Origin: the human T2T-CHM13v2.0 reference genome, Homo sapiens
DNA: 64,000 nt
Direction: 5' to 3'
Assembly (NCBI GenBank): GCA_009914755.4
Contig: CP068257.2
Coordinates: 8,224,001-8,288,000 of the forward strand
In this document: one piece after another, positions 1 through 50,331 of the stretch
How positions within the stretch are numbered: the stretch's first letter is position 1
Layout of the letters: each line of letters starts with the position of its first letter
The notes under the pieces: generated by a model
What the model was told of the DNA's origin: nothing
Seen by the model: the letters and a program-made list of their open reading frames with translations, nothing else
The model's database searches: none
Program-made: the position numbers and the translations under genes

Positions 1-3000
1 TTTCCTACTATAGGCCTGAAAGTGCTGCAAATATCCGTTTGCAGATACTGCAAAAAGACTGTTTCCACACTGCTCAATCAAAGGAAATGTCCAACTCTGT
101 GAGTTGAATGCACGCATCTCAAAGAGATTACTTATAATGATTCTGTCTGGTTTTGATGTGAAGATATTTGCTTTTCCACCAGTGGCCTCAAACTCTCCAA
201 ATATCCACTTGCAGATTCTACAATAAGAGTGTTTCAAAACTGCTCAATCAAAAGAAAGGTTCAACACTGTGAGATGAATGCACACGTCACAAAGCACTTT
301 CTTAGAATGCTTCTGTCTAGCTTTTATGTGAAGATATTTCCTTTTTCACCATAGGCTGCAAAGCGCTCCAAATATCCCTTTCAGATTCTACAGAAAGAGT
401 ATTTCAAAACTGTTCAATCAAAAGAGAAACTCAACTCTGGTGATGAATGCACGCATCACAAAGCAGTTTCTCATAATGTTTCTGTCTAGTTTTTATGTGA
501 AGATATTTCATTCTCCACTATAGGCCGTAATGCACTCCTAATATCCACTTGCAGATTCTACAAAAAGACTGTTTGCAAACTGCTCAAACAAAAGAAAAGT
601 TCAACTCTGTGAGTTGAATGAGCACATCACAAAGAAGTTTCTCAGAATGCTTCTGTCTAGTTTTTATGTGAATATATTTCCTTTTCCACTATAGGCCGTC
701 ATGCGCTCCAAATATCCACTTGCAGATTCTACAAAAAGACTGTTTCCAAACTGCTCAATCAAAAGAAAAGCTCAACTCTGTGAGTTGAATGAGCACATCA
801 CAAAGAAGTTTCTCAGAATGCTTCTATCTAGTTTTTATGTGAATATATTTCCTTTTCCACCACAGGCCACAAACCCTCCAAATATCCACTTGAAGATTCT
901 ACAAAAAGAGTGCTTCAAAAATACTCAATCAAAAGAAAGGTTCAACTCTTCGAGATGGACGCACACATCACAAAGAAGCTTCTCAGAATGTTTCTGTCTA
1001 GTTTTTTTGTGAAGATATTTCCTTTTCCACTGAAGTCCTCAAGTCTCTCCAACTATCTACTTTCAGAATCTCCAAAAAGAGTGTTTTAAATCTGCTGTAC
1101 CAAAGAAAGTTTCATGTCTGAGATATGACTGCATACAACACAGAGAACTTTCTCAAAGTGCTTCTGTTTATTTTTCTTATGAAGATATTTCCTTTTCCAC
1201 TATGGGCCACAGAGCGCTCCAAATATCCACTGGCAGATTCTACAAAAAGAGTGTTTCAAAACTGCTCAATCAATAGAAAGTTTGAAGTCTGTGAGATGAA
1301 TGTGCACATCACAAAGGAGTTTCTAAGAATGCTTCCATCTGAATTTTATGTGAGGATATTTCCTTTTTCACCATAGGCCTCAATACACTCCAAATATCCA
1401 TTTACAGATAATACAAATGACTGTATCCAAACTGCTCAATCAAAAGAAAGTTCAACTGTGCATGATGAATGCACACATCACAAGGGTGTTTCTCAGAAAG
1501 ATTTTGTCTTGTTTTTAGGTGAAGATATTTCTTATTTCCCCAGAGGCCTCAATGGGCTCTCAAATATTCCCTTTCATATTCTACTAAATGACTGTATCGA
1601 AGCTGCTCAATCAAAAGACGGGTTTAACAGTGTGAGACGAAAATACACCTTCCTAGGAAGTTTCTCAGAATTCTTCTTTCTAGTTTTTTATGTGAAGATA
1701 TTTCCTTTTCCACTATAGGCCTCAAAGCGTTCCAAATATCCACTTGCAGATACTACAAATAGAGCGTTTCAAAACTGCTCAATCAAAAGAAATGTTCAAC
1801 TCTGTGAGATGAATGCAGACATCAAAAAGAAGTTTCTCAGAATGCTTCCGCGTTGTTTTTATGTGAAGATATTTCCTTTTCCACCATAGGCCTCAAAGCA
1901 CTGGTAATATCCATTTGCAGATACTACAAAAAGACTGTCCCCAAACTGCTCAATAAAAAGAAAGTTTCAACTCTAGGAGATAAAAGCAAATATCACAAAG
2001 AAGTTTCTCAGAAACTTTCTATCTAGTTTTTATGTGAACGTATTTATTATCACCCCATAGACCTCAATCGGCTCACAAGTATCCTTCTGCAGATTGTAAA
2101 AAACTACTGTTTCCAAACCGCTCAATCACAGGAAAGGTTTAACTCTGTGAAATGAATGCATCCATCACAGAGAAGTTTCTCAGAATGCTTCCGTCTCGTT
2201 TCCATGTGAAGAAGATTCCTTTTCCACCATATTCCTCATGCGCTCCAAATAAACACTTGCAGATTCCGCTAAAAGAGTGTTTCAAAACTGCTCAATCAAA
2301 AGAAAGGTTCTAGTCGGTGAGATGAATGCACACATCACAAAGAGGTTTCTATGAATGCTTCTGTCTGATTTATATTGAAGATATATCCTTTTTCACCGTA
2401 GGCCTCAGAGTGCTTAAAATATCCATTTGCAGATAGTAGAAAAGACGGTTTCCAAACTGCTCAATCAAAGTAAAGTTCAACTCAGTGAGATGAATGCACA
2501 CATCACCAAGACGTTTCTGAGAAAGATTCTGTCTCGTTTTTATGTGAAGATATTTCCTGTTTCCCCAGAGGCATCAATGGGCTCACAAATATTCCTTTGC
2601 ATATTCTACAAAATGACTGTTTAGAAGGTGCTCAATCAAAAAAAAAGTTCAACAGTGTGAGATGAATGCGCCCATTCAAAGGAAGTTTCTCAGAATTCTT
2701 CTATCTAGTTTTTATGTGAAGATATTTCCTTTTTCACTATAGGCCACAAAGTGCTCCAAATATCCACTTGCAGACTCTACAAAACGAGTGTATCCACACT
2801 GCTCAATCAAAAGAAAATTTCAACTGTGTGAGATGAATGCACACATCAAAATAAATTTCTCCAAAACTTCTGCCTACTTTTTATGGGAAGATATTTCGTT
2901 TTTCAACGTAGGCCAAAAGCACTCCAAATATCAATTTGCAGATTCTACAAAAAGACTGTTTCCAAACTGCTCAATCAACAGAAAGTTTCAACCCGGTGAG

Positions 3001-3915
3001 TAGAAGTCACACATGACAAAATAGTTTCTCAGAAAGTATCTGTCTAGTTTTTATGTGAAGATATTTCCTATCACCCCAGAAGCCTCAATGGGCTCACAAA
3101 TATTCCTTTGCAGATTCTACAAAACGACAGTTTCAAAACTGCTGAATCAAAAGAAAGGTTCAACTCTGTGAGATGAATGCACAGATCACAAATAAGTTTC
3201 TCAGAATGCTGCTGTCTAGTTTTTATGGGAAGAGATTTCCTTTTCCACCATAGGCCTCAAAGCTCTCCAAATAGCCATTTGCAGATACTGTAAAAAGACT
3301 GTTTCCAAACTGCTGAATCAAAAGAAAGGTTGAACTCCATGAGTTGAATGCACACGTCACAAAGAAGTTTCTCAGAATGCTTCTGACTAGTTTTTATGTG
3401 AAGATATTTTCTTTTCCACCATAGGCCTCAAAGCGCTGAAAATATCCACTTGAAGATTCTACAGAAAGAGAGTTTCAAAACTGCTCAAACAAAAGAAAGA
3501 TTCAACTCTGTGAGATGAATGCACACATCACAAAGAAGTTTCTCAGAATGCTTCTGTCTAGTTTTATGTAAAGATATTTCCTTTTCTACTATAGGCCACA
3601 AAGCATTCCAAATATCAACTTGCAGATTCTGCAGAAAGAGTTTTTCAAAGCTGCTCAATCAAAAGAAAAGTTCAACTCTTTGAGATGAATGCACACATCA
3701 TGAAGTTCCTCAGAATGCTTCTATTTTTATGTGAAGATATATCCTTTTCTACCATAGACCACAAAACTCTCCAAATATCCCCTTGCAGTTTCTACTAAAA
3801 GAGTGTTTCCAAACTGCTCAATCAAAAGAAAGTTTCAACTCTGTGAGATGAATGCACACATCATTAAGAAGTTTCTCAGTAATTTTCTGTCTAGTTTTTA
3901 TGTGAAGATATTTCC
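1..3915. repeat. HOR copy 1 (phase set arbitrarily at the window start)
   Basis: Bases 1-180 differ from 3916-4095 at about 1 position in 180. Confidence 0.85.
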
Positions 3916-6900
3916 TTTCCTACTATAGGCCTGAAAGTGCTGCAAATATCCGTTTGCAGATACTGCAAAAAGACTGTTTCCACACTGCTCAATCAAAGGA
4001 AATGTCCAACTCTGTGAGTTGAATGCACGCATCTCAAAGAGATTACTTATAATGATTCTGTCTAGTTTTGATGTGAAGATATTTGCTTTTCCACCAGTGG
4101 CCTCAAACTCTCCAAATATCCACTTGCAGATTCTACAATAAGAGTGTTTCAAAACTGCTCAATCAAAAGAAAGGTTCAACACTGTGAGATGAATGCACAC
4201 GTCACAAAGCACTTTCTTAGAATGCTTCTGTCTAGCTTTTATGTGAAGATATTTCCTTTTTCACCATAGGCTGCAAAGCGCTCCAAATATCCCTTTCAGA
4301 TTCTACAGAAAGAGTGTTTCAAAACTGTTCAATCAAAAGAGAAACTCAACACTGGTGATGAATGCACGCATCACAAAGCAGTTTCTCATAATGTTTCTGT
4401 CTAGTTTTTATGTGAAGATATTTCATTCTCCACTATAGGCCGTAATGCACTCCTAATATCCACTTGCAGATTCTACAAAAAGACTGTTTGCAAACTGCTC
4501 AAACAAAAGAAAAGTTCAACTCTGTGAGTTGAATGAGCACATCACAAAGAAGTTTCTCAGAATGCTTCTGTCTAGTTTTTATGTGAATATATTTCCTTTT
4601 CCACTATAGGCCGTCATGCGCTCCAAATATCCACTTGCAGATTCTACAAAAAGACTGTTTCCAAACTGCTCAATCAAAAGAAAAGCTCAACTCTGTGAGG
4701 TGAATGAGCACATCCCAAAGAAGTTCCTCAGAATGCTTCTATCTAGTTTTTATGTGAATATATTTGCTTTTCCACCACAGGCCACAAACCCTCCAAATAT
4801 CCACTTGAAGATTCTACAAAAAGAGTGCCTCAAAAATGCGCAATCAAAAGAAAGGTTCAACTCTTCGAGATGGACGCACACATCACAAAGAAGCTTCTCA
4901 GAATGTTTCTGTCTAGTTTTTTTGTAAAGATATTTCCTTTTCCACCGTAGTCCTCAAGTCTCTCCAAATATCTACTTTCAGAATCTCCAAAAAGAGTGTT
5001 TTAAAACTGCTGTACCAAAGAAAGTTTCATGTCGGAGATATGACTGCATACAACACAGAGAACTTTCTCAAAGTGCTTCTGTTTATTTTTCTTATGAAGA
5101 TATTTCCTTTTCCACTATGGGCCACAGAGTGCTCCAAATATCCACTGGCAGATTCTACAAAAAGGGTGTTTCAAAACTGCTCAATCAATAGAAAGTTTGA
5201 AGTCTGTGAGATGAATGTACACATCACAAAGGAGTTTCTAAGAATGCTTCCATCTGAATTTTATGTGAGGATATTTCCTTTTTCACCATAGGCCTCAGTA
5301 CACTCCAAATATCCATTTACAGATAATACAAATGACTGTATCCAAACTGCTCAATCAAAAGAAAGTTCAACTGTGTATGATGAATGCACACATCACAAGG
5401 GTGTTTCTCAGAAAGATTTTGTGTAGTTTTTAGGTGAAGATATTTCTTATTTCCCCAGAGGCCTCAATGGGCTCTCAAATATTCCCTTTCATATTCTACT
5501 AAATGACTGTATCGAAGCTGCTCAATCAAAAGACGGGTTTAACAGTGTGAGACGAAAATACACCTTCCTAGGAAGTTTCTCAGAATTCTTATTTCTAGTT
5601 TTTTATGTGAAGATATTTCCTTTTCCACTATAGGCCTCAAAGCGTTCCAAATATCCACTTGCAGAAACTACAAATAGAGCTTCTCAAAACTGCTCAATCA
5701 AAAGAAAGGTTCAACACTGTGAGATGAATGCAGATATCAAAAAGAAGTTTCTCAGAATGCTTCCGCGTTGTTTTTATGTGAAGATATTTCCTTTTCCACC
5801 ATAGGCCTCAAAGCACTGGTAATATCCATTTGCAGATACTACAAAAAGACTGTCCCCAAACTGCTCAATAAAAAGAAAGTTTCAACTCTAGGAGATAAAA
5901 GCAAATATCACAAAGAAGTTTCTCAGAAACTTTCTATCTAGTTTTTATGTGAACGTATTTATTATCACCCCATAGACCTCAATCGGCTCACAAGTATCCT
6001 TCTGCAGATTGTAAAAAACTACTGTTTCCAAACTGCTCAATCACAGGAAAGGTTTAACTCTGTGAAATGAATGCATCCATCACAGAGAAGTTTCTCAGAA
6101 TGCTTCCGTCTCGTTTCCATGTGAAGAAGATTCCTTTTCCACCATATTCCTCATGCGCTCCAAATAAACACTTGCAGATTCCGCTAAAAGAGTGTTTCAA
6201 AACTGCTCAATCAAAAGAAAGGTTCTAGTCGGTGAGATGAATGCCCACATCACAAAGAGGTTTCTATGAATGCTTCTGTCTGATTTATATTGAAGATATT
6301 TCCTTTTTCACCGTAGGCCTCAGAGTGCTTAAAATATCCATTTGCAGATAGTAGAAAAGACGGTTTCCAAACTGCTCAATCAAAGTAAAGTTCAACTCAG
6401 TGAGATGAATGCACACATCACCAAGACGTTTCTGAGAAAGATTCTGTCTCGTTTTTATGTGAAGATATTTCCTGTTTCCCCAGAGGCATCAATGGGCTCA
6501 CAAATATTCCTTTGCATATTCTACAAAATGACTGTTTAGAAGGTGCTCAATCAAAAAAAAAGTTCAACAGTGTGAGATGAATGCGCCCATTCAAAGGAAG
6601 TTTCTCAGAATTCTTCTATCTAGTTTTTATGTGAAGATATTTCCTTTTTCACTATAGGCCACAAAGTGCTCCAAATATCCACTTGCAGACTCTACAAAAC
6701 GAGTGTATCCACACTGCTCAATCAAAAGAAAATTTCAACTGTGTGAGATGAATGCACACATCAAAATAAATTTCTCCAAAACTTCTGCCTACTTTTTATG
6801 GGAAGATATTTCGTTTTTCAACGTAGGCCAAAAGCACTCCAAATATCAATTTGCAGATTCTACAAAAAGACTGTTTCCAAACTGCTCAATCAACAGAAAG

Positions 6901-7830
6901 TTTCAACCCGGTGAGTAGAAGTCACACATGACAAAATAGTTTCTCAGAAAGTATCTGTCTAGTTTTTATGTGAAGATATTTCCTATCACCCCAGAAGCCT
7001 CAATGGGCTCACAAATATTCCTTTGCAGATTCTACAAAACGACAGTTTCAAAACTGCTGAATCAAAAGAAAGGTTCAACTCTGTGAGATGAATGCACAGA
7101 TCACAAATAAGTTTCTCAGAATGCTGCTGTCTAGTTTTTATGGGAAGAGATTTCCTTTTCCACCATAGGCCTCAAAGCTCTCCAAATAGCCATTTGCAGA
7201 TACTGTAAAAAGACTGTTTCCAAACTGCTGAATCAAAAGAAAGGTTGAACTCCATGAGTTGAATGCACACGTCACAAAGAAGTTTCTCAGAATGCTTCTG
7301 TCTAGTTTTTATGGGAAGATATTTTCTTTTCCACCATAGGCCTCAAAGCGCTGAAAATATCCACTTGAAGATTCTACAGAAAGAGAGTTTCAAAACTGCT
7401 CAAACAAAAGAAAGATTCAACTCTGTGAGATGAATGCACACATCACAAAGAAGTTTCTCAGAATGCTTCTGTCTAGTTTTATGTAAAGATATTTCCTTTT
7501 CTACTATAGGCCACAAAGCACTCCAAATATCAACTTGCAGATTCTGCAGAAAGAGTTTTTCAAAGCTGCTCAATCAAAAGAAAAGTTCAACTCTTTGAGA
7601 TGAATGCACACATCATGAAGTTCCTCAGAATGCTTCTATTTTTATGTGAAGATATATCCTTTTCTACCATAGACCACAAAACGCTCCAAATATCCCCTTG
7701 CAGTTTCTACTAAAAGAGTGTTTCCAAACGGCTCAATCAAAAGAAAGTTTCAACTCTGTGAGATAAATGCACACATCATTAAGAAGTTTCTCAGTAATTT
7801 TCTGTCTAGTTTTTATGTGAAGATATTTCC
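3916..7830. repeat. HOR copy 2
   Basis: 3,915-bp offset from copy 1. Anchors 3898/7813 and 4616/8531 recur. Confidence 0.85.
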
Positions 7831-10800
7831 TTTCCTACTATAGGCCTGAAAGTGCTGCAAATATCCGTTTGCAGATACTGCAAAAAGACTGTTTCCACAC
7901 TGCTCAATCAAAGGAAATGTCCAACTCTGTGAGTTGAATGCACGCATCACAGAGAGATTATTTCTAATGATTCTGTCTAGTTTTGATGTGAAGATATTTG
8001 CTTTTCCACCAGTGGCCTCAAACTCTCCAAATATCCACTTGCAGATTCTACAATAAGAGTGTTTCAAAACTGCTCAATCAAAGAAAGGTTCAACACTGTG
8101 AGATGAATGCACACGTCACAAAGCACTTTCTTAGAATGCTTCTGTCTAGCTTTTATGTGAAGATATTTCCTTTTTCACCATAGGCTGCAAAGCGCTCCAA
8201 ATATCCCTTTCAGATTCTACAGAAAGAGTGTTTCAAAACTGTTCAATCAAAAGAGAAACTCAACTCTGGTGATGAATGCACGCATCACAAAGCAGTTTCT
8301 CATAATGTTTCTGTCTAGTTTTTATGTGAAGATATTTCATTCTCCACTATAGGCCGTAATGCACTCCTAATATCCACTTGCAGATTCTACAAAAAGACTG
8401 TTTGCAAACTGCTCAAACAAAAGAAAAGTTCAACTCTGTGAGTTGAATGAGCACATCACAAAGAAGTTTCTCAGAATGCTTCTGTCTAGTTTTTATGTGA
8501 ATATATTTCCTTTTCCACTATAGGCCGTCATGCGCTCCAAATATCCACTTGCAGATTCTACAAAAAGACTGTTTCCAAGCTGCTCAATCAAAAGAAAAGC
8601 TCAACTCTGTTAGTTGAATGAGCACATCCCAAAGAAGTTCCTCAGAGTGCTTCTATCTAGTTTTTATGTGAATATATTTGCTTTTCCACCACAGGCCACA
8701 AACCCTCCAAATATCCACTTGAAGATTCTACAAAAAGAGTGCCTCAAAAATGCGCAATCAAAACAAAGGTTCAACTCTTCGAGATGGACGCACACAACAC
8801 AAAGAAGCTTCTCAGAATGTTTCTGTCTGGTTTTTTTGTGAAGATATTTCCTTTTCCACCGTAGTCCTCAAGTCTCTCCAAATATCTACTTTCAGAATCT
8901 CCAAAAAGAGTGTTTTAAAACTGCTGTACCAAAGAAAGTTTCATGTCGGAGATATGACTGCATACAACACAGAGAACTTTCTCAAAGTGCTTCTGTTTAT
9001 TTTTCTTATGAAGATATTTCCTTTTCCACTATGGGCCACAGAGTGCTCCAAATATCCACTGGCAGATTCTACAAAAAGGGTGTTTCAAAACTGCTCAATC
9101 AATAGAAAGTTTGAAGTCTGTGAGATGAATGTACACATCACAAAGGAGTTTCTAAGAATGCTTCCATCTGAATTTTATGTGAGGATATTTCCTTTTTCAC
9201 CATAGGCCTCAGTACACTCCAAATATCCATTTACAGATAATACAAATGACTGTATCCAAACTGCTCAATCAAAAGAAAGTTCAACTCTGTATGATGAATG
9301 CACACATCACAAGGGTGTTTCTCAGAAAGATTTTGTCTAGTTTTTAGGTGAAGATATTTCTTATTTCCCCAGAGGCCTCAATGGGCTCTCAAATATTCCC
9401 TTTCATATTCTACTAAATGACTGTATCGAAGCTGCTCAATCAAAAGACGGGTTTAACAGTGTGAGACGAAAATACACCTTCCTAGGAAGTTTCTCAGAAT
9501 TCTTCTTTCTAGTTTTTTATGTGAAGATATTTCCTTTTCCACTATAGGCCTCAAAGCGTTCCAAATATCCAATTGCAGATACTACAAATAGAGCGTTTCA
9601 AAACTGCTCAATCAAAAGAAAGGTTCAACTCTGTGAGATGAATGCAGACATCAAAAAGAAGTTTCTCAGCATGCTTCCGCCTTGTTTTTATGTGAAGATA
9701 TTTCCTTTTCCACCATAGGTCTCAAAGCACTGGTAATATCCATTTGCAGATACTACAAAAAGACTGTCCCCAAACTGCTCAATAAAAAGAAAGTTTCAAC
9801 TCTAGGAGTTAAAAGCAAATATCACAAAGAAGTTTCTCAGAAACTTTCTATCTAGTTTTTATGTGAACGTATTTCTTATCACCCCATAGACCTCAATCGG
9901 CTCACAAGTATCCTTCTGCAGATTGTAAAAAACTACTGTTTCCAAACTGCTCAATCTCAGGAAAGGTTTAACTTTGTGAGATGAATGCATCCATCACAGA
10001 GAAGTTTCTCAGAATGCTTCTGTCTCGTTTCCATGTGAAGAAGATTCCTTTTCCACCATATTCCTCATGCGCTCCAAATAAACACTTGCAGATTCCGCTA
10101 AAAGAGTGTTTCAAAACTGCTCAATCAAAAGAAAGGTTCTAGTCGGTGAGATGAATGCACACATCACAAAGAGGTTTCTATGAATGCTTCTGTCTGATTT
10201 ATATTGAAGATATATCCTTTTTCACCGTAGGCCTCAGAGTGCTTAAAATATCCATTTGCAGATAGTAGAAAAGACGGTTTCCAAACTGCTCAATCAAAGT
10301 AAAGTTCAACTCAGTGAGATGAATGCACACATCACCAAGACGTTTCTGAGAAAGATTCTGTCTCGTTTTTATGTGAAGATATTTCCTGTTTCCCCAGAGG
10401 CATCAATGAGCTCACAAATATTCCTTTGCATATTCTACAAAATGACTGTTTAGAAGGTGCTCAATCAAAAAAAAAGTTCAACAGTGTGAGATGAATGCGC
10501 CCATTCAAAGGAAGTTTCTCAGAATTCTTCTATCTAGTTTTTATGTGAAGATATTTCCTTTTTCACTATAGGCCACAAAGTGCTCCAAATATCCACTTGC
10601 AGACTCTACAAAACGAGTGTATCCACACTGCTCAATCAAAAGAAAATTTCAACTGTGTGAGATGAATGCACACATCAAAATAAATTTCTCCAAAACTTCT
10701 GCCTACTTTTTATGGGAAGATATTTCGTTTTTCAACGTAGGCCAAAAGCACTCCAAATATCAATTTGCAGATTCTACAAAAAGACTGTTTCCAAACTGCT

Positions 10801-18600: not shown

Positions 18601-21275
18601 CTACAAAAAGACTGTTTCCAAACTGCTCAATCAAGAGAAAGTTTCAACCTGGTGAGTAGAAGTCACACATGACAAAATAGTTTCTCAGAAAGTATCTGTC
18701 TAGTTTTTATGTGAAGATATTTCCTATCACCCCAGAAGCCTCAATGGGCTCACAAATATTCCTTTGCAGATTCTACAAAACGACAGTTTCAAAACTGCTG
18801 AATCAAAAGAAAGGTTCAACTCTGTGAGATGAATGCACAGATCACAAATAAGTTTCTCAGAATGCTGCTGTCTAGTTTTTATGGGAAGATATTTCCTTTC
18901 CCACCATAGGCCTCAAAGCTCTCCAAATAGCCATTTGCAGATACTGTAAAAAGACTGTTTCCAAACTGCTGTATCAAAAGAAAGGTTGAACTCCATGAGT
19001 TGAATGCACACGTCACAAAGAAGTTTCTCAGAATGCTTCTGACTAGTTTTTATGTGAAGATATTTCCTTTTCCACTATAGGCCTCAAAGCGTTCCAAATA
19101 TCCACTTGCAGAAACTACAAATAGAGCGTTTCAGAACTGCTCAATCAAAAGAAAGGTTCAACTCTGTGAGATGAATGCAGACATCAAAAAGAAGTTTCTC
19201 AGAATGCTTCTGCCTTGTTTTTATGTGAAGATATTTCCTTTTTCACCATAGGCCTCAAAGCACTGGTAATATCCATTTGCAGATACTACAAAAAGACTGT
19301 TCCCAAACTGCTCAATAAAAAGAAAGTTTCAACTCTATGAGATAAAAGCAAATATCACAAAGAAGTTTCTCAGAAACTTTCTATCTAGTTTTTATGTGAA
19401 CATATTTCTTATCACCCCATAGACCTCAATCGGCTCACAAGTATCCTTCTGCAGATTGTAAAAAACTACTGTTTCCAAACCGCTCAATCACAGGAAAGGT
19501 TTAACTCTGTGAAATGAATGCATCCATCACAGAGAAGTTTCTCAGAATGCTTCCGTCTCGTTTTTATGTGAAGAAGATTCCTTTTCCACCATATTCCTCA
19601 TGCGCTCCAAAGAAACACTTGCAGATTCCGCTAAAAGAGTGTTTCAAAACTGCTCAATCAAAAGACAGGTTCTAGTCGGTGAGATGAATGCACACATCAC
19701 AAAGACGTTTCTATGAATGCTTCTGTCTGATTTATATTGAAGATATTTCCTTTTTCACCGTAGGCCTCAGAGTGCTTAAAATATCCATTTGCAGATACTA
19801 GAAAAGACTGTTTCCAAACTGCTCAATCAAAATAAAGTTCAACTCAGTGAGATGAATGCACACATCACCAAGACGATTCTGACAAAGATTCTGTCTCGTT
19901 TTTATGTGAAGATATTTCCTGTTTCCCCAGAGGCATCAATGGGCTCACAAATATTCCTTTGCATATTCTACAAAATGACTGTTTAGAAGGTGCTGAATCA
20001 AAAAAAAAGTTCAACAGTGTGAGATGAATGCGCCCATTCAACGGAAGTTTCTCAGAATTCTTCTATCTAGTTTTTATGTGAAGATATTTCCTTTTTCACT
20101 ATAGGCCAGAAAGTGCTCCAAATATCCACTTGCAGACTCTACAAAACGAGTGTATCCACACTGCTCAATCAAAAGAAAATTTCAACTGTGTGAGATGAAT
20201 GCACACATCAAAATAAATTTCTCCAAAACTTCTGCCTACTTTTTATGGGAAGATATTTCGTTTTTCAACGTAGGCCAGAAGCACTCCAAATATCAATTTG
20301 CAGATTCTACAAAAAGACTGTTTCCAAACTGCTCAATCAAGAGAAAGTTTCAACCTGGTGAGTAGAAGTCACACATGACAAAATAGTTTCTCAGAAAGTA
20401 TCTGTCTAGTTTTTATGTGAAGATATTTCCTATCACCCCAGAAGCCTCAATGGGCTCACAAATATTCCTTTGCAGATTCTACAAAACGACAGTTTCAAAA
20501 CTGCTGAATCAAAAGAAAGGTTCAACTCTGTGAGATGAATGCACAGATCACAAATAAGTTTCTCAGAATGCTGCTTTCTAGTTTTTATGGGAAGATATTT
20601 CCTTTCCCACCATAGGCCTCAAAGCTCTCCAAATAGCCATTTGCAGATACTGTAAAAAGACTGTTTCCAAACTGCTGTATCAAAAGAAAGGTTGAACTCC
20701 ATGAGTTGAATGCACACGTCACAAAGAAGTTTCTCAGAATGCTTCTGACTAGTTTTTATGTGAAGATATTTTCTTTTCCACAGTAGGCCTCAAAGCGCTG
20801 AAAATATCCACTTGAAGATTCTACAAATGAGAGTTTCAAAACTGCTCAAACAAAAGAAAGATTCAACTCTGTGAGATGAATGCACACATCACAAAGAAGT
20901 TTCTCAGAATGCTTCTGTCTAGTTTTATGTAAAGATATTTCCTTTTCTACTATAGGCCACAAAGCACTCCAAATATCAACTTGCAGATTCTGCAGAAAGA
21001 GTTTTTCAAAGCTGCTCAATCAAAAGAAAAGTTCAACTCTTTGAGATGAATGCACACATCAGGAAGTTCCTCAGAATGCTTCTATTTTTATGTGAAGATA
21101 TAGCCTTTTCTACCATAGACGACAAAACGCTCCAAATATCCCCTTGCAGTTTCTACTAAAAGAGTGTTTCCAAACTGCTCAATCAAAAGAAGTTTCAACT
21201 CTGTGAGATGAATGCACTCATCAATAAGAAGTTTCTCAGTAATTTTCTGTCTAGTTTTTATGTGAAGATATTTCC
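15658..21275. repeat. HOR copy 5, an expanded variant of 5,618 bp. It contains a 1,706-bp (10-monomer) internal tandem duplication.
   Basis: Anchors at 15640 and 21258 are 5,618 bp apart, which is 3,912 plus 1,706. ORFs at 18083/18444 recur identically at 19789/20150. At about 19050 the sequence jumps from HOR coordinate about 3390 back to about 1690. Confidence 0.85.
19051..20756. repeat. Second copy of the 10-monomer intra-HOR tandem duplication. The first copy is at about 17345-19050.
   Basis: Near-identical 1,706-bp blocks. Identical 65-aa and 71-aa ORF translations occur at 18083/19789 and 18444/20150. Confidence 0.8.
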
Positions 21276-24200
21276 TTTCCTACTATAGGCCTGAAAGTGC
21301 TCCAAATATCCGTTTGCAGATACTGCAAAAAGACTGTTTCCAAACTGCTCAATCAAAGGAAATGTCCAAATCTGTGAGTTGAATGCACGCATCTCAAAGA
21401 GATTACTCATAATGATTCTGTCTAGTTTTGATGTGAAGATATTTGCTTTTCCACCAGTGGCCTCAAACTCTCCAAATATCCACTTGCAGATTCTACAATA
21501 AGAGTGTTTCAAAACTGCTCAATCAAAAGAAAGGTTCAACACTGTGAGATGAATGCACACGTCACAAAGCACTTTCTTAGAATGCTTCTGTCTAGCTTTT
21601 ATGTGAAGATATTTCCTTTTTCACCATAGGCTGCAAAGCGCTCCAAATATCCCTTTCAGATTCTACAGAAAGAGTGTTTCAAAACTGTTCAATCAAAAGA
21701 GAAACTCAACTCTGGTGATGAATGCACGCATCACAAAGCAGTTTCTCATAATGTTTCTGTCTAGTTTTTATGTGAAGATATTTCATTTTCCACTATAGGC
21801 CGTAATGCACTCCTAATATCCACTTGCAGATTCTACAGAAAGACTGTTTGCAAACTGCTCAAACAAAAGAAAAGTTCAGCTCTGTGAGTTGAATGAGCAC
21901 ATCACAAAGAAGTTTCTCAGAATGCTTCTGTCTAGTTTTTATGTGAATATATTTCCTTTTCCACTATAGGCCGTAATGCGCTCCAAATATCCACCTGCAG
22001 ATTCTACAAAAAGACCGTTTCCAAAGTGCTCAATCAAAAGAAAAGTTCAACTCTGTGAGTTGAATGAGCACATCACAAAGAAGTTTCTCACAATGCTTCT
22101 ATCTAGTTTTTATGTGAATATATTCCCTTTTCCACCACAGGCCACAAACACTCCAAATATCCACTTGAAGATTCTACAAAAAGAGTGCTTCAAAAATGCT
22201 CAATCAAAAGAAAGGTTCAACTCTTTGAGATGGATGCACACATCACAAAGAAGCTTCTCAGAATGTTCCTGTCTAGTTTTTTTGTGAAGATATTTCCTTT
22301 TCCACCGTAGTCCTCAAGTCTCTCCAAATATCTACTTTCAGCATCTCCAAAAAGAGTGTTTTAAAACTGCTGTACCAAAGAAAGTTTCGTGTCTGAGATA
22401 TGACTGCATACAACACAGAGAAGTTTCTCAAAGTGCTTCTGTTTATTTTTTTTATGAAGATATTTCCTTTTCCACTATGGGCCACAGAGCGCTCCAAATA
22501 TTCACTGGCAGATTCTACAAAAAGAGTGTTTCAAAACTGCTCAATCAATAGAAAGTTTGAAGTCTGTGAGATGAATGCACACATCACAAAGGAGTTTCTA
22601 AGAATGCTTCCATCTGAATTTTATGTGAGGATATTTCCTTTTTCACCATAGGCCTCAATACACTCCAAATATCCATTTACAGATAATACAAATGACTGTA
22701 TCCAAACTGCTCAATCAAAAGAAAGTTCAACTGTGTATGATGAATGCACACATCACAAGGGTGTTTCTCAGAAAGTTTTTGTCTAGCTTTTAGGTGAAGA
22801 TATTTCTTATTTCCCCAGAGGTCTCAATGGGCTCTCAAATATTCCCTTTCATATTCTACTAAATGACTGTATCGAAGCTGCTCAATCAAAAGACGGGTTT
22901 AACAGTGTGAGACGAAAATACACCTTCCTAGGAAGTTTCTCAGAATTCTTCTGTCTAGTTTTTTATGTGAAGATATTTCCTTTTCCACTATAGGCCTCAA
23001 AGCGTTCCAAATATCCACTTGCAGATACTACAAATAGAGCGTTTCAAAACTGCTCAATCAAAAGAAAGGTTCAACTCTGTGAGATGAATGCAGACATCAA
23101 AAAGAAGTTTCTCAGAATGCTTCTGCCTTGTTTTTATGTGAAGATATTTCCTTTTTCACCATAGGCCTCAAAGCACTGGTAATATCCATTTGGAGATACT
23201 ACAAAAAGACTGTTCCCAAACTGCTCAATAAAAAGAAAGTTTCAACTCTATGAGATAAAAGCAAATATCACAAAGAAGTTTCTCAGAAAATTTCTATCTA
23301 GTTTTTATGTGAACATATTTCTTATCACCCCATAGACCTCAATCGGCTCACAAGTATCCTTCTGCAGATTGTAAAAAACTACTGTTTCCAAACCGCTCAA
23401 TCACAGGAAAGGTTTAACTCTGTGAAATGAATGCATCCATCACAGAGAAGTTTCTAAGAATGCTTCCGTCTCGTTTTTATGTGAAGAAGATTCCTTTTCC
23501 ACCATATTCCTCATGCGCTCCAAAGAAACACTTGCAGATTCCGCTAAAAGAGTGTTTCAAAACTGCTCAATCAAAAGAAAGGTTCTAGTCGGTGAGATGA
23601 ATGCACACATCACAAAGACGTTTCTATGAATGCTTCTGTCTGATTTATATTGAAGATATTTCCTTTTTCACCGTAGGCCTCAGAGTGCTTAAAATATCCA
23701 TTTGCAGATACTAGAAAAGACTGTTTCCAAACTGCTCAATCAAAATAAAGTTCAACTCAGTGAGATGAATGCACACATCACCAAGACGTTTCTGAGAAAG
23801 ATTCTGTCTCGTTTTTATGTGAAGATATTTCCTGTTTCCCCAGAGGCATCAATGGGCTCACAAATATTCCTTTGCATATTCTACAAAATGACTGTTTAGA
23901 AGGTGCTCAATCAAAAAAAAAGTTCAACAGTGTGAGATGAATGCGCCCATTCAACGGAAGTTTCTCAGAATTCTTCTATCTAGTTTTTATGTGAAGATAT
24001 TTCCTTTTTCACTATAGGCCACAAAGTGCTCCAAATATCCACTTGCAGACTCTACAAAACGAGTGTATCCACACTGCTCAATCAAAAGAAAATTTCAACT
24101 GTGTGAGATGAATGCACACATCAAAATAAATTTCTCCAAAACTTCTGCCTACTTTTTATGGGAAGATATTTCGTTTTTCAACGTAGGCCAAAAGCACTCC

Positions 24201-25188
24201 AAATATCAATTTGCAGATTCTACAAAAAGACTGTTTCCAAACTGCTCAATCAAGAGAAAGTTTCAACCTGGTGAGTAGAAGTCACACATGACAAAATAGT
24301 TTCTCAGAAAGTATCTGTCTAGTTTTTATGTGAAGATATTTCCTATCACCCCAGAAGCCTCAATGGGCTCACAAATATTCCTTTGCAGATTCTACAAAAC
24401 GACAGTTTCAAAACTGCTGAATCAAAAGAAAGGTTCAACTCTGTGAGATGAATGCACAGATCACAAATAAGTTTCTCAAAATGCTGCTGTCTAGTTTTTA
24501 TGGGAAGATATTTCCTTTCCCACCATAGGCCTCAAAGCTCTCCAAATAGCCATTTGCAGATACTGTAAAAAGACTGTTTCCAAACTGCTGTATCAAAAGA
24601 AAGGTTGAACTCCATGAGTTGAATGCACACGTCACAAAGAAGTTTCTCAGAATGCTTCTGACTAGTTTTTATGTGAAGATATTTTCTTTTCCACAGTAGG
24701 CCTCAAAGCGCTGAAAATATCCACTTGAAGATTCTACAAATGAGAGTTTCAAAACTGCTCAAACAAAAGAAAGATTCAACTCTGTGAGATGAATGCACAC
24801 ATCACAAAGAAGTTTCTCAGAATGCTTCTGTCTAGTTTTATGTAAAGATATTTCCTTTTCTACTATAGGCCACAAAGCACTCCAAATATCAACTTGCAGA
24901 TTCTGCAGAAAGAGTTTTTCAAAGCTGCTCAATCAAAAGAAAAGTTCAACTCTTTGAGATGAATGTACACATCAGGAAGTTCCTCAGAATGCTTCTATTT
25001 TTATGTGAAGATATAGCCTTTTCTACCATAGACCACAAAACGCTCCAAATATCCCCTTGCAGTTTCTACTAAAAGAGTGTTTCCAAACTGCTCAATCAAA
25101 AGAAGTTTCAACTCTGTGAGATGAATGCACTCATCAATAAGAAGTTTTTCAGTAATTTTCTGTCTAGTTTTTATGTGAAGATATTTCC
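21276..25188. repeat. HOR copy 6 (canonical length)
   Basis: Anchors at 21258 and 25171 are 3,913 bp apart. Confidence 0.85.
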
Positions 25189-28100
25189 TTTCCTACTATA
25201 GGCCTGAAAGTGCTCCAAATATCCGTTTGCAGATACTGCAAAAAGACTGTTTCCAAACTGCTCAATCAAAGGAAATGTCCAACTCTGTGAGTTGAATGCA
25301 CGCATCTCAAAGAGATTACTCATAATGATTCTGTCTAGTTTTGATGTGAAGATATTTGCTTTTCCACCAGTGGCCTCAAACTCTCCAAATATCCACTTGC
25401 AGATTCTACAATAAGAGTGTTTCAAAACTGCTCAATCAAAAGAAAGGTTCAACACTGTGAGATGAATGCACACGTCACAAAGCACTTTCTTAGAATGCTT
25501 CTGTCTAGCTTTTATTTGAAGATATTTCCTTTTTCACCATAGGCTGCAAAGCGCTCCAAATATCCCTTTCAGATTCTACAGAGAGAGTGTTTCAAAACTG
25601 TTCAATCAAAAGAGAAATTCAACTCTGGTGATGAATGCACGCATCACAGAGCAGTTTCTCATAATGTTTCTGTCTATTTTTTATGTGAAGTTATTTCATT
25701 TTCCACTATAGGCCGTAATGCACTCCTAATATCCACTTGCAGATTCTACAAAAAGACTGTTTGCAAACTGCTCAAACAAAAGAAAAGTTCAACTCTGTGA
25801 GTTGAATGAGCACATCACAAAGAAGTTTCTCAGAATGCTTCTGTCTAGTTTTTATGTGAATATATTTCCTTTTCCACTATAGGCCGTAATGTGCTCCAAA
25901 TATCCACCTGCAGATTCTACAAAAAGACTGTTTCCAAAGTGCTCAATCAAAAGAAAAGTTCAACTCTGTGAGATGAATGAGCACATCACAAAGAAGCTTC
26001 TCAGAATGTTTCTGTCTAGTTTTTTTGTGGAGATATTTCCTTTTCCACCGTAGTCCTCAAGTCTCTCCAAATACCTACTTTCAGAATCTCCAAAAAGAGT
26101 GTTTTAAAACTGCTGTACCAAAGAAAGTTTCATGTCTGAGTTATGACTGCATACAACACAGAGAAGTTTCTCAAAGTGCTTCTGTTTATTTTTTTTATGA
26201 AGATATTTCCTTTTCCACTATTGGCCACAGAGCGCTCCAAATATCCACTGGCAGATTCTACAAAAAGAGTGTTTCAAAACTGCTCAATCAATAGAAAGTT
26301 TGAAGTCTGTGAGATGAATGCACACATCACAAAGGAGTTTCTAAGAATGCTTCCATCTGAATTTTATGTGAGGATATTTCCTTTTTCACCATAGGCCTCA
26401 GTACACTCCAAATATCCATTTACAGATAATACAAATGACTGTATCCAAACTGCTCAATCAAAAGAAAGTTCAACTGTGTATGATGAATGCACAAATCACA
26501 ATGGTGTTTCTCAGAAAGTTTTTGTCTAGTTTTTAGGTGAAGATATTTCTTATTTCCCCAGAGGCCTCAATGGGCTCTCAAATATTCCCTTTCATATTCT
26601 ACTAAATGACTGTATCGAAGCTGCTCAATCAAAAGACGGGTTTAACAGTGTGAGACGAAAATACACCTTCCTAGGATGTTTCTCAGAATTCTTCTTTCTA
26701 GTTTTTTATGTGAAGATATTTCCTTTTCCACTATAGGCCTCAAAGCGTTCCAAATATCCACTTGCAGATACTACAAATAGAGCGTTTCAAAACTGCTCAA
26801 TCAAAAGAAAGGTTCAACTCTGCGAGATGAATGCAGACATCAAAAAGAAGTTTCTCAGAATGCTTCTGCCTTGTTTTTATGTGAAGATATTTCCTTTTTC
26901 AAAATAGGCCTCAAAGCACTGGTAATATCCATTTGCAGATACTACAAAAAGACTGTTCCCAAACTGCTCAATAAAAAGAAAGTTTCAACTCTAGCAGATA
27001 AAAGCAAATATCACAAAGAAGTTTCTCAGAAACTTTCTATCTATTTTTTATGTGAACATATTTCTTATCACCCCATAGACCTCAATCGGCTCACAAGTAT
27101 CCTTCTGTAGATTATGAAAAACTACTGTTTCCAAACCGCTCAATCACAGGAAAGGTTTAACTCTGTGAAATGAATGCATCCATCACAGAGAAGTTTCTCA
27201 GAATGCTTCCGTCTCGTTTTTATGTGAAGAAGATTCCTTTTCCACCATATTCCTCATGCGCTCCAAATAAACACTTGCAGATTCCGCTAAAAGAGTGTTT
27301 CAAAACTGCTCAATCAAAAGAAAGGTTCTAGTCGGTGAGATGAATGTACACATCCCAAAGAAGTTTCTATGAATGCTTCTGTCTGATTTATATTGAAGAT
27401 ATTTCCTTTTTCACCGTAGGCCTCAGAGTGCTTAAAATATCCATTTGCAGATACTAGAAAAGACTGTTTCCAAACTGCTCAATCAAAATAAAGTTCAACT
27501 CAGTGAGATGAATGCACACATCACCAAGACGTTTCTGAGAAAGATTCTGTCTCGTTTTTATGTGAAGATATTTCCTGTTTCCCCAGAGGCATCAATGGGC
27601 TCACAAATATTCCTTTGCATATTCTACAAAATGACTGTTTAGAAGGTGCTCAATCAAAAAAAAAGTTCAACAGTGTGAGATGAATGCGCCCATTCAAAGG
27701 AAGTTTCTCAGAATTCTTCTATCTAGTTTTTATGTGAAGATATTTCCTTTTTCACTATAGGCCACAAAGTGCTCCAAATATCCACTTGCAGACTCTGCAA
27801 AACGAGTGTATCCACACTGCTCAATCAAAAGAAAATTTCAACTGTGTGAGATGAATGCACACATCAAAATAAATTTCTCCAAAACTTCTGCCTACTTTTT
27901 ATGGGAAGATATTTCGTTTTTCAACGTAGGCCAAAAGCACTCCAAATATCAATTTGCAGATTCTACAAAAAGACTGTTTCCAAACTGCTCAATCAAGAGA
28001 AAGTTTCAACCCGGTGAGTAGAAGTCACACATGACAAAATAGTTTCTCAGAAAGTATCTGTCTAGTTTTTATGTGAAGATATTTCCTATCACCCCAGAAG

Positions 28101-28550
28101 CCTCAATGGGCTCACAAATATTCCTTTGCAGATTCTACAAAACGACAGTTTCAAAACTGCTGAATCAAGAGAAAGGTTCAACTCTGTGAGATGAATGCGC
28201 AGATCACAAATAAGTTTCTCAGAATGCTGCTGTCTAGTTTTTATGGGAAGATATTTCCTTTTCCACCATAGGCCTCAAAGCTCTCCAAATATCCATCTGC
28301 AGATACTGTAAAAAGACTGTTTCCAAACTGCTGAATCAAAAGAAAGGTTGAACTCCATGAGTTGAATGCACACGTCACAAAGAAGTTTCTCAGAATGCTT
28401 CTGACTAGTTTTTATGTGTAGATATTTTCTTTTCCACCATAGGCCTCAAAGCGCTGAAAATATCCACTTGAAGATTCTACAGAAAGAGAGTTTCAAAACT
28501 GGTCAAACAAAAGAATGATTCAACTCTGTGAGATGAATGCACACTTCACA
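25189..28550. repeat. HOR copy 7, a shortened variant. It lacks one monomer (junction about 25990-26000) and its last monomers fall within the 4-monomer copy 7/8 junction deletion at about 28548-28556.
   Basis: Anchors 22400 and 26143 are 3,743 bp apart, which is 3,914 minus 171. At about 25996 the first half of one monomer is fused in register to the second half of the next-but-one monomer. At about 28550 the sequence jumps from HOR coordinate about 3540 to about 290 of the next unit. Confidence 0.75.
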
Positions 28551-29500
28551 AAGCACTTTCTTAGAATGCTTCTGTCTAGCTTTTATTTGAAGATATTTCC
28601 TTTTTCACCATAGGCTGCAAAGCACTCCAAATATCCCTTTCAGATTCTACAGAGAGAGTGTTTCAAAACTGTTCAATCAAAAGAGAAATTCAACTCTGGT
28701 GATGAATGCACGCATCACAGAGCAGTTTCTCATAATGTTTCTGTCTATTTTTTATGTGAAGTTATTTCATTTTCCACTATAGGCCGTAATGCACTCCTAA
28801 TATCCACTTGCAGATTCTACAAAAAGACTGTTTGCAAACTGCTCAAACAAAAGAAAAGTTCAACTCTGTGAGTTGAATGAGCACATCACAAAGAAGTTTC
28901 TCAGAATGCTTCTGTCTAGTTTTTATGTGAATATATTTCCTTTTCCACTATAGGCCGTAATGCGCTCCAAATATCCACCTGCAGATTCTACAAAAAGACT
29001 GTTTCCAAACTGCTCAATCAAAAGAAAAGTTCAACTCTGTGAGATGAATGAGCACATCACAAAGAAGTTTCTCAGAATGCTTCTATCTAGTTTTTATGTG
29101 AATATATTTCCTTTTCCACCACAGGCCACAAACACTCCAAATATCCACTTGAAGATTCTACAAAAAGAGTGCTTCAAAAATGCTCAATCAAAAGAAAGGT
29201 TCAACTCTTTGAGATGGATGCACACATCACAAAGAAGCTTCTCAGAATGTTTCTGTCTAGTTTTTTTGTGAAGATATTTCCTTTTCCACCGTAGTCCTCA
29301 AGTCTCTCCAAATATCTACTTTCAGAATCTCCAAAAAGAGTGTTTTAAAACTGCTGTACCAAAGAAAGTTTCATGTCTGAGATATGACTGCATACAACAC
29401 AGAGAAGTTTCTCAAAGTGCTTCTGTTTATTTTTTTTATGAAGATATTTCCTTTTCCACTATGGGCCACAGAGCGCTCCAAATATCCACTTGCAGATTCT
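28551..29500. repeat. HOR copy 8. It is 5'-truncated by the junction deletion, and the array terminates at HOR coordinate about 1240.
   Basis: 28960..29271 and 29384.. match copy 6 at 21976.. and 22400... Similarity to the HOR is lost from about 29490-29530 onward. Confidence 0.75.
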
Positions 29501-32500: not shown

Positions 32501-32989
32501 TGAAGATATTTCCTTTTTCACTATAGGAGGCAAAGCTTTCCAAATATCCAATTGCGGATTCCACAAAAAAAGTGTTCCAAAACTGCTCAATGAAAGGAAA
32601 TGTTGAATTATGTGAGATAAAAGCACACATCATAAAGGAGTTTCTAAGAATGCTTTTGTCTGGTTTTTATGTGAAGATATTTCCTTTTCAACTATAGGCC
32701 TCAAAGCGCTCCAAATATACATTTGCAGATGCTACAAAAAGAATGTTTCCAAACTCCTCAAAGATATGTTCAACTTTGTGAGTTGAATGCACATATCACA
32801 AAGTAGTTTCTCAGAATGCTTCTGTCCAGATTTTATTTGAAGATATTTCCTTTACCAACATAGGCCTCAAAGCTCTCCAAATATCGAATTGCAGATTCCA
32901 CAAAAACAGTGTTTGAATACTGCTCAAACAAAAGAAAGGTTCAACCCTGTGAGATGAATGCATACATCACACAGAAGTTTCTCAGAATG

Positions 32990-50306: not shown

Positions 50307-50323
50307 CAGAGTACTGCTGTGTA
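50307..50323. repeat. Putative left target-site duplication of the L1 (cagagtactgctgtgta)
   Basis: This 17-bp alpha-satellite segment sits immediately before the poly(A). It is re-encountered at 56495-56511 (cagtttgcttctgtgta, 13/17 identical) before the monomer continues (gtt.ttatgtgag). Confidence 0.5.
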
Positions 50324-50331
50324 TTTTTTTT
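50324..50331 (-). other. Short poly(A) tail of the L1, seen as a T run on the plus strand
   Basis: A T8 run lies between the alpha-satellite flank (ctgctgtgta) and the L1 3'UTR reverse complement. Confidence 0.7.

What the first reader, a model, noticed from the sequence alone, without database searches (positions are those of the whole stretch)
1..29500. Homogeneous 23-mer (about 3.9 kb) alpha-satellite HOR with no intact CENP-B boxes, only A-type (pJalpha-like) monomers
HOR copies are about 98-99% identical, which is typical of recently homogenised centromeric arrays. At the monomer position where B-type monomers carry the 17-bp CENP-B box (reverse complement here would be tcccgtttccaacgaag), every monomer I inspected instead reads a pJalpha-like motif such as tttccttttccaccatagg, tttccttttccactatagg, tttcctttttcaccatagg or tttcttatttccccagagg. 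The closest box-like strings are atttcgtttttcaacgtagg (one monomer per HOR, about 2885, 6800, 10715...) and, outside the array, attcccgtttccaccatagg at about 57200. Both lack the essential CCCG and/or CGAA core. Most active human autosomal and X HORs alternate A-type and B-type monomers. Arrays without a B box are characteristic of the Y-centromere type (SF4-like) or of inactive, older pericentromeric HORs. The unit length of about 23 monomers does not match the classical DYZ3 34-mer, so I cannot assign a chromosome.
Basis: partly seen in the sequence, partly recalled or inferred. Interest (0 to 1): 0.55.

Follow-up and report, generated by a model that had tools for sequence, protein, structure and literature searches.

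The report
Known chromosome-21 short-arm alpha-satellite array
This is the end of an already catalogued, non-centromeric alpha-satellite higher-order repeat (S4/6C13/14/21H1) on the short arm of human chromosome 21 (near-copies on 13 and 14); its lack of CENP-B boxes is real, but it is what is expected of the old A-type satellite families it is built from.

Summary
Window 1 to about 29,535 is a 23-monomer, 3,914-bp alpha-satellite higher-order repeat (HOR). Copies are 97.4-99.0% identical and monomers within a unit are about 77% identical. No CENP-B core occurs on either strand anywhere in the 64 kb.

The HOR is already known. Its consensus is colinear with, and 99.45% identical to, the published "23/25mer" HOR of T2T-CHM13 chromosome 21 (Gluncic 2025). 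The three structural variants at the array end match that paper's description, as do a 5,619-bp spacing between copies and the position of the array end. So does the distance to a full-length L1PA3 insertion listed in the T2T tables.

Altemose et al. name the HOR S4/6C13/14/21H1. They class it as suprachromosomal families 4/6 (both A-type) and state "pseudo", with 1,125 CENP-A reads against 1.57 million for the live chr13/21 array.

The chromosome it could not assign is 21p, or less likely the 13p or 14p paralogue.

Small corrections: four monomers per unit depart strongly from the pJalpha motif, and the last 16 kb of the array holds rearranged copies.

Verdict: already known, low interest.

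The parts
1..29535 (-). Distal end of the S4/6C13/14/21H1 alpha-satellite HOR array. The unit has 23 monomers and 3,914 bp. The window holds about 7.5 units (174 monomers). Monomers are reverse-complemented relative to the canonical alpha-satellite orientation.
   Evidence: Consensus 99.45% identical to the published chr21 consensus.
1..17347 (-). Regular part of the array: one unit truncated by a few bases at the window start, then three full canonical 23-monomer units and the start of the next.
   Evidence: Monomer label string. Pairwise identity 98.0-99.0%.
17348..20759 (-). Tandem duplication of a 10-monomer block (K to T; 17,348-19,053 and 19,054-20,759). The two copies differ by 1 substitution. 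This creates a 33-monomer, 5,619-bp local period.
   Evidence: The 5,619 lag appears. It equals the spacing of the chr21 copies at 8,237,753 and 8,243,372 in PMC12385485.
25856..26024 (-). E/F hybrid monomer: an in-register unequal exchange that removed one monomer (published type t18).
   Evidence: Matches 't18 absent' in PMC12385485.
28416..28586 (-). U/B hybrid monomer: an exchange that removed four monomers (V, W, X and the U/B halves; published types t11-t14).
   Evidence: Matches 't11-t14 absent'.
29439..29608 (-). Junction monomer. It is H-like over its first ~95 columns and then diverges. The boundary between HOR and monomeric satellite is at about 29,535.
6800..6969 (-). Example R monomer (published type t7) carrying the box-like string TTCGTTTTTCAACGTAG. 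It has 5 mismatches to the CENP-B box and lacks both the TTCG and CGGG cores. There are eight such monomers, starting at 2885, 6800, 10714, 14628, 18541, 20247, 24160 and 27903.
5434..5606 (-). Example of the divergent 172-bp monomer class (J; also M, P and S at 5949, 6459 and 6970, and the corresponding positions in other units). These sit at every third position across I to T. They are probably the SF6 (Ha) component; this is an inference.
   Evidence: SF6 = 172 bp, A-type.
29536..50329 (-). Monomeric (non-HOR) A-type alpha satellite flanking the array. Mean pairwise identity is 78.8% and there is no periodicity. It corresponds to mon_21_2 of the T2T annotation.
50330..56519 (-). Full-length L1 retrotransposon with decayed ORFs inserted in the monomeric satellite. 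It corresponds to the annotated L1PA3 (-) of 6,144 bp, which starts 20.8 kb after the HOR end.
   Evidence: AT skew. RVT_1 domain, E = 5.7e-45, on the minus strand. The 3' end and poly(A) run appear as a T-run at ~50,325, and the 5' UTR reverse complement at ~56,490. Altemose Table S15.
56520..64000 (-). Continuation of the monomeric A-type alpha satellite. It includes the best CENP-B-like string in the window (57,214-57,230, 3 mismatches) and a diverged 27-monomer duplication.

Best explanation
The window covers the last ~29.5 kb of the alpha-satellite HOR array catalogued as S4/6C13/14/21H1, together with its flank. The HOR was earlier reported as a 3.9-kb 23-mer of chromosome 21 and attributed to D21Z3/pTRA-1. 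The flank is monomeric SF4-type alpha satellite with an L1PA3 insertion. The position corresponds to about T2T-CHM13v2.0 chr21:8.224-8.288 Mb on 21p, roughly 2.7 Mb distal to the active centromere array.

How it arose (inferred). A block of 23 old, A-type monomers was amplified recently by unequal exchange or gene conversion. The monomers are mostly the class also found in the flank, plus four 172-bp monomers of a second class. Hybrid monomers and a near-identical 10-monomer duplication at the array edge are direct traces of that mechanism.

Function. All its monomers descend from families that predate the B-type monomer, so it has no CENP-B boxes. According to published CENP-A data it is not the kinetochore-forming array; the curators call it a 'pseudocentromere'. 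Its role is that of inert or heterochromatic satellite and a substrate for exchange among acrocentric short arms, not of a centromere.

What is shown here: sequence identity, structure, absence of boxes, and recombination scars. What is taken from the literature: SF label, CENP-A status, chromosome coordinates. What is inferred: the amplification history.
For: Structure.
- 23-monomer, 3,914-bp unit. Copies are 97.4-99.0% identical and monomers within a unit ~77%.

Match to the published chr21 HOR.
- The window consensus is colinear with Table S2 of PMC12385485 (order t13 to t23, then t1 to t12). Identity is 99.45% at aligned positions: 21 substitutions in 3,851.
- That paper lists variant copies lacking t10-t22, t18, and t11-t14 plus t20-t23. 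The window shows exactly these, in the same order.
- Copy starts 8,237,753 and 8,243,372 are 5,619 bp apart. The window's L-monomer starts 13,606 and 19,225 are also 5,619 bp apart.
- The published array end at 8,253,585 projects to window ~29,415. The last HOR monomer ends at 29,435 in my frame, which is offset by 23 bp.

Match to the T2T annotation.
- Altemose Table S1 (v1.0 coordinates): hor_21_1(S4/6C13/14/21H1) at 8,917,707-8,990,511, followed by mon_21_2.
- Table S15: the first transposable element there is L1PA3 (-) at 9,011,357-9,017,501, which is 20,846 bp after the HOR end. In the window a minus-strand full-length L1 begins at 50,330, about 20.8-20.9 kb after the HOR end.
- Table S3: SF 4/6, 23 monomers, state 'pseudo', CENP-A reads 1,125 against 1,572,599 for S2C13/21H1L.
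- Table S4: SF4 and SF6 are A-type.

Boxes.
- No CENP-B core in the whole window.
Against: - I could not align the window to the assemblies themselves. Paralogous arrays exist on chr13 (36 kb) and chr14 (73 kb, inverted). They may share the same edge structure, so the 21p assignment rests on published descriptions of chr21 only.
- Per-monomer classification as Ga or Ha was not possible because no reference consensus was available.
- The CENP-A status comes from read counts against an hg38 reference model, not from data I analysed.
- The D21Z3/pTRA-1 equivalence is a statement in PMC6718397 about 'one of two 23mers' and is unverified here.
Confidence: 0.94

Rival explanations
1. It is the same HOR family, but the window comes from the chr13 or chr14 paralogue (or from another human haplotype) rather than CHM13 chr21.
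For: Altemose Table S1 lists hor_13_1 and hor_14_2 with the same HOR name. Their flanks are near-identical in size: mon_13_2 is 142,950 bp and mon_21_2 is 142,581 bp. The acrocentric short arms share recent segmental duplications (PMC4496801).
Against: The chr21-specific description fits to within a few base pairs: variant order, the 5,619-bp spacing, array end, and L1PA3 distance and strand. The chr13 array is only 36 kb. The chr14 array lies in the opposite orientation to its long monomeric flank.
Confidence: 0.12
2. It is an active or latent (epiallele) centromere array of Y-chromosome type that works without CENP-B.
For: Like DYZ3 it is a homogeneous, purely A-type HOR with no CENP-B boxes. 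Shepelev et al. raise the question whether some such arrays were short-lived centromeres.
Against: The curators' state is 'pseudo', with CENP-A reads of 1,125 against 1.57 million for the live chr13/21 array. The array is only ~73 kb. It is not DYZ3: 23 monomers against 34, and it matches another HOR at 99.45%.
Confidence: 0.02
3. It is an assembly artefact or a synthetic reference-model sequence (such as hg38 GJ211961.2, generated by a Markov process) rather than real long-range sequence.
For: hg38 represents this HOR by a stochastic model placed on four chromosomes.
Against: The window carries a real array edge with hybrid monomers, a unique monomeric flank and an L1 insertion. All agree with the long-read T2T assembly annotation. 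Reference models contain no non-HOR satellite.
Confidence: 0.02

Closest known systems
S4/6C13/14/21H1 (T2T-CHM13 HOR catalogue; the '23/25mer HOR' of chr21 in Gluncic et al. 2025; hg38 model GJ211961.2; reportedly D21Z3/pTRA-1)
   Same: 23 monomers and 3,914-3,915 bp. Colinear monomer order and 99.45% consensus identity. The same edge variants, the same flank and the same L1PA3. A-type only.
   Different: Nothing substantive. The window shows only 23-monomer units and edge variants, not the 25-monomer variant units, which lie further into the array.
DYZ3 / S4CYH1L (active Y-centromere HOR)
   Same: Homogeneous HOR made only of A-type, SF4-type monomers, with no CENP-B boxes.
   Different: DYZ3 is a 34-mer (~5.8 kb), is the live centromere, and has unrelated monomer order. 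The present array is a 23-mer of mixed SF4/6 and is not CENP-A bound.
S4/6C13/14/21/22H8 (the hg38 '33mer HOR', GJ211955.2)
   Same: An acrocentric SF4/6 pseudocentromere HOR. A 33-monomer period also appears in the window.
   Different: It is a different HOR. Its published monomers are only 71-87% identical to the best-matching monomer of this 23-mer. The window's period 33 is a 23 + 10 monomer duplication. The 33-mer is listed as 'not in CHM13'.
S2C13/21H1L (D13Z1/D21Z1, active chr21 centromere)
   Same: Alpha-satellite HOR on chromosome 21.
   Different: It is an 11-mer of SF2 with alternating A/B monomers and intact CENP-B boxes (visible in Table S1 of PMC12385485). It has 1.57 million CENP-A reads and lies ~2.7 Mb proximal.

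Membership tests
Alpha satellite | Tandem ~171-bp AT-rich monomers homologous to the primate alpha-satellite consensus | tested here: met
   Period 171 over 1-50,329 and 56,500-64,000. 341 monomers, 36-37% GC. The reverse complement matches published alpha-satellite monomers.
Higher-order repeat (HOR) organisation | Multi-monomer unit repeated at >95% identity while monomers within the unit differ by 20-40% | tested here: met
   Units 97.4-99.0% identical. Monomers within a unit average 77.3%. The flank from 29.6 kb on fails this test: 78.8% mean identity and no periodicity.
S4/6C13/14/21H1 | 23 specific monomer types in a fixed order, with sequence identity to the master HOR | tested here: met
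   Colinear with the published chr21 consensus t1-t23. 99.45% at aligned positions. 23 monomers, as in Table S3 row 43.
S4/6C13/14/21H1 | Genomic context: acrocentric short arm, followed by a monomeric SF4/SF6 layer with L1PA3 insertions | tested here: met
   HOR, then monomeric satellite, then a minus-strand full-length L1 ~20.8 kb later. The annotation gives 20,846 bp. Chr21 versus chr13/14 is not resolved.
Pure A-type families (SF4 Ga / SF6 Ha) | A/B-box region in the A (pJalpha-like) state, with no CENP-B box | tested here: met
   0 CENP-B cores. All 23 monomers are at least 4 mismatches from the box. 16 of 23 are within 2 mismatches of the pJalpha motif. The motif itself is quoted from my own knowledge of Romanova 1996 and Rosandic 2006.
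Pure A-type families (SF4 Ga / SF6 Ha) | Each monomer classifies to the Ga (171 bp) or Ha (172 bp) profile | not testable with these tools
   No Ga/Ha/M1/V1 consensus or HMM was available. Indirect evidence: 19 monomers share the flank's consensus (98%), and 4 form a separate 172-bp class. The published label is SF 4/6.
Active centromere HOR | CENP-A/CENP-C occupancy (kinetochore-forming array) | not testable with these tools
   Literature only: state 'pseudo', 1,125 CENP-A reads against about 0.7-6 million for the live autosomal and X arrays listed.
DYZ3 (S4CYH1L) | 34-monomer, ~5.8-kb unit of the Y centromere | tested here: not met
   The unit is 23 monomers and 3,914 bp and matches a different catalogued HOR.
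AB-type new families (SF1-3) or SF5 | Presence of B-type monomers (J2, D1, W-type B, R1) with CENP-B boxes or their remnants | tested here: not met
   No monomer is nearer than 4 mismatches to the box. No alternation of two box states.

The most novel reading that the evidence does not exclude
Inside the 23-mer, a divergent 172-bp monomer class (J, M, P, S) recurs at every third position across twelve monomers (I-J-K, L-M-N, O-P-Q, R-S-T) and is absent from the 167 flanking monomers. This could mean the unit was built from an older three-monomer repeat that mixed two satellite generations (SF4 and SF6), later expanded fourfold and then captured into the present HOR. That nested history does not appear in the papers I read. 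It would be a small refinement of how 'pseudocentromere' HORs arise on acrocentric short arms.
Probability: 0.3. Interest if true: 0.15.

Novelty: already known. Interest (0 to 1): 0.07.

Why it matters
It matters little beyond correct annotation. The array is one of the catalogued inactive alpha-satellite HORs of the acrocentric short arms, and its lack of CENP-B boxes follows from its SF4/SF6 ancestry.

It remains useful in three ways:
- as a marker for 13p/14p/21p structure and for exchange between those arms;
- as a natural example, with DYZ3, of a homogenised B-box-free HOR;
- as a clean illustration of unequal-exchange scars (hybrid monomers, a 10-monomer duplication differing by one base) at an array edge.

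Tried and rejected
- Simple lag-identity scanning gave blurred peaks because of indels (3,913/3,914/3,915, 5,619, 3,743). Monomer-by-monomer labelling replaced it.
- I tested whether the window's 33-monomer period is the hg38 '33mer HOR'. It is not: that consensus is only 71-87% identical to the best-matching monomers, and the text copy is degraded (5,260 of ~5,630 bp).
- I looked for M1/V1 (Ga/Ha) consensus sequences so as to classify each monomer. The main text and supplements of Shepelev 2009 hold none. The classification of J, M, P and S as SF6 therefore stays an inference.
- Ziccardi et al. 2016 and the Science version of Altemose et al. are not held. I used the bioRxiv version and its tables instead.
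- The repeat finder on the flank returned only the generic 171-bp family and added nothing.
- A weak Pfam hit (DUF4391, below cut-off) on an L1 ORF fragment was ignored.
- I did not scan the bacterial, phage or metagenome collections. They cannot inform a human satellite.
Full report
WHAT IS IN THE WINDOW

The whole 64-kb window is alpha satellite except for one insertion. Tandem Repeats Finder reports a 171-bp array over 1-50,329 and again over 56,500-64,000. GC content is 36-37% throughout, and AT skew changes sharply only between about 50 and 56 kb. A profile built from the window's own monomers finds 341 monomers, all in one orientation. That orientation is the reverse complement of the conventional alpha-satellite strand, because published monomers match the window only after reverse-complementing.

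THE HIGHER-ORDER REPEAT

Clustering the monomers at about 94% identity gives a perfectly ordered 23-letter string that repeats from the window start to about 29.5 kb. After that, every monomer is unique.

- The strongest self-similarity lag is 3,914 bp.
- Unit starts are at 2, 3902, 7817, 11731, 15644, 21262 and 25175.
- Full units are 97.4-99.0% identical pairwise, and neighbouring units 98.4-99.0%.
- The 23 monomers of one unit are on average 77.3% identical, range 63-92%.

The array is not uniform at its end:

- A 10-monomer block (K to T) is duplicated in tandem at 17,348-19,053 and 19,054-20,759. The copies differ by a single substitution.
- One unit has an E/F hybrid monomer (25,856-26,024), which removes one monomer.
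- The last unit has a U/B hybrid (28,416-28,586), which removes four monomers.
- The array stops inside an H monomer at about 29,535.

These are classical unequal-exchange scars.

CENP-B AND pJALPHA

The essential core nTTCGnnnnAnnCGGGn has no match on either strand in the entire window. The full 17-bp box has no match at 2 or fewer mismatches. It has a single match at 3 mismatches (57,214-57,230, outside the HOR), which keeps CGGG but lacks TTCG.

Within the HOR the closest monomer is 4 mismatches away. That distance is simply the separation between the A-type and B-type box states.

The pJalpha motif TTCCTTTTYCACCRTAG, which I quote from my own knowledge of the literature, is exact in 6 of the 23 monomers. 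It is within 2 mismatches in 16 of 23. It is 3-6 mismatches away in monomers J, M, P and S. So 'no B-type monomer' is confirmed, but 'all pJalpha-like' is somewhat generous.

IDENTIFICATION

A full-text search for '23mer' with 'alpha satellite' led to two papers on chromosome 21.

The supplement of Gluncic et al. 2025 (PMC12385485, Table S2) prints the 23 consensus monomers of the '23/25mer HOR' of T2T-CHM13 chr21, 8,180,952-8,253,585.

- Each published monomer maps to one window monomer, in the same cyclic order.
- The window's HOR consensus is 99.45% identical at aligned positions: 21 substitutions in 3,851. There are 64 extra window bases, which look like characters lost in the PDF text.

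The paper states that the array ends with five variant copies. The second lacks t10-t22, the fourth lacks t18, and the fifth lacks t11-t14 plus t20-t23. Translated into my labels, these are exactly the 10-monomer block, the E/F hybrid, and the U/B hybrid with truncation after G, in the same order.

The paper also names copies starting at 8,237,753 and 8,243,372, which are 5,619 bp apart. The corresponding window monomers start at 13,606 and 19,225, also 5,619 bp apart. Projecting from these, window position 1 is about chr21:8,224,171, and the published array end (8,253,585) falls at window ~29,415. This is within a few bases of the last HOR monomer once the 23-bp frame offset is allowed for.

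THE OFFICIAL CATALOGUE ENTRY

Altemose et al. (bioRxiv 10.1101/2021.07.12.452052), Table S3 row 43, lists the following:

- name S4/6C13/14/21H1, on chr13/14/21;
- SF 4/6, 23 monomers;
- master copy hg38 chr13:16,062,740-16,066,654 (3,915 bp), reference model GJ211961.2;
- state 'pseudo', 1,125 CENP-A reads, rated homogeneous and modern.

The live chr13/21 array has 1,572,599 CENP-A reads.

Their Table S1 (v1.0 coordinates) places hor_21_1(S4/6C13/14/21H1) at chr21:8,917,707-8,990,511, followed by mon_21_2. Table S15 lists the first transposon in mon_21_2 as L1PA3, minus strand, 9,011,357-9,017,501 (6,144 bp). That is 20,846 bp after the HOR end.

In the window, the non-satellite block at 50,330-56,519 is a full-length L1 on the minus strand:

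- a reverse-transcriptase domain, E = 5.7e-45;
- the 3' end with its poly(A) read as a T-run at ~50,325;
- the 5' UTR read in reverse at ~56,490.

It begins about 20.8-20.9 kb after the HOR end. Every independent landmark therefore agrees.

Paralogous arrays exist on chr13 and chr14. Without the assemblies I cannot formally exclude them, so I give chr21 about 0.85.

WHY THERE ARE NO CENP-B BOXES

Table S4 of Altemose et al. lists SF4 (monomer class Ga, 171 bp) and SF6 (Ha, 172+171 bp) as A-type only. B-type monomers first appear in SF5. Shepelev et al. 2009 say the same for M1/SF4 and V1/SF6. Shepelev et al. 2015 already reported SF4+ HORs in the 13/14/21/22 group and interpreted them as recently amplified 'pseudocentromeres'.

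The window fits this picture.

- The flanking 167 monomers form a single-class, aperiodic layer with 78.8% mean identity.
- The consensus of that layer is 98% identical to the consensus of 19 of the 23 HOR monomers.
- The other four monomers (J, M, P, S) are 172 bp long, form their own class (79-84% identical to one another, apart from M with J or P at 71-73%), and have no counterpart in the flank.

I infer that these four are the 'SF6' part of the 4/6 label. I could not test this because no reference consensus was available.

MECHANISM

Shown here:

- near-identical multi-monomer units;
- hybrid monomers whose breakpoints are in register;
- a 1.7-kb duplication differing at one base;
- an abrupt junction with older monomeric satellite.

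Inferred: a 23-monomer stretch of old A-type satellite was amplified and is kept homogeneous by unequal crossing-over or gene conversion on the acrocentric short arm.

From the literature: it does not recruit CENP-A, and the active chr21 centromere is the SF2 11-mer about 2.7 Mb proximal, whose monomers carry intact CENP-B boxes (visible in Table S1 of PMC12385485).

VERDICT

- The feature is already known and annotated, and the absence of CENP-B boxes is expected for its family. Interest is low.
- The only mildly new detail is the every-third-monomer placement of the divergent class inside the unit, which hints at an older trimeric precursor.

Noticed in passing
window 5265-7312 (monomers I to T of each unit; e.g. 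J 5434, M 5949, P 6459, S 6970): A divergent 172-bp monomer class recurs at every third position over twelve monomers (four trimers). It carries a box region such as TTCCTGTTTCCCCAGAG and the string CAATGGGCTC. It is absent from all 167 flank monomers. This suggests an older 3-monomer repeat nested in the 23-mer, probably the SF6 (Ha) component.
   Followed up: partly
window 4412-4753 (monomers D and E): Adjacent monomers D and E are 92% identical, far above the 77% average within the unit. This points to a monomer duplication that predates the HOR amplification.
   Followed up: no
window 50330-56519: A full-length L1 on the minus strand with broken ORFs (RVT_1 domain present), inserted in the monomeric satellite. 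It matches the L1PA3 listed in the T2T interspersed-repeat table. Its age class sets a minimum age for the monomeric flank, while the HOR part of the window has no transposon.
   Followed up: yes
window 42639-43492 and 44006-44860: A local duplication in the monomeric flank at a lag of 8 monomers (1,367 bp). Three monomers are 99.4% identical and two more are 94-95% identical.
   Followed up: partly
window ~56690-59250 and ~61290-63850: A diverged duplication at a lag of 27 monomers (~4.6 kb), 87-96% identical monomer by monomer, running to the window end. TRF's two 27-bp micro-repeats at 57,270 and 61,872 are the same feature in both copies. It may be the edge of a divergent (dead) HOR or of a segmental duplication.
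   Followed up: partly
window 36069-36168 and 46021-46054: A monomer with an internal deletion of ~70 bp (two partial profile hits), and a perfect 17-bp tandem duplication (ATTAGTTTCTCAGAATG x2) inside a flank monomer.
   Followed up: no
window 57214-57230: The best CENP-B-box-like string in the window is TCCCGTTTCCACCATAG on the + strand (3 mismatches). It keeps the CGGG half but lacks TTCG. It is a single A-type monomer with a T-to-C and T-to-G change, not a B-type monomer.
   Followed up: yes
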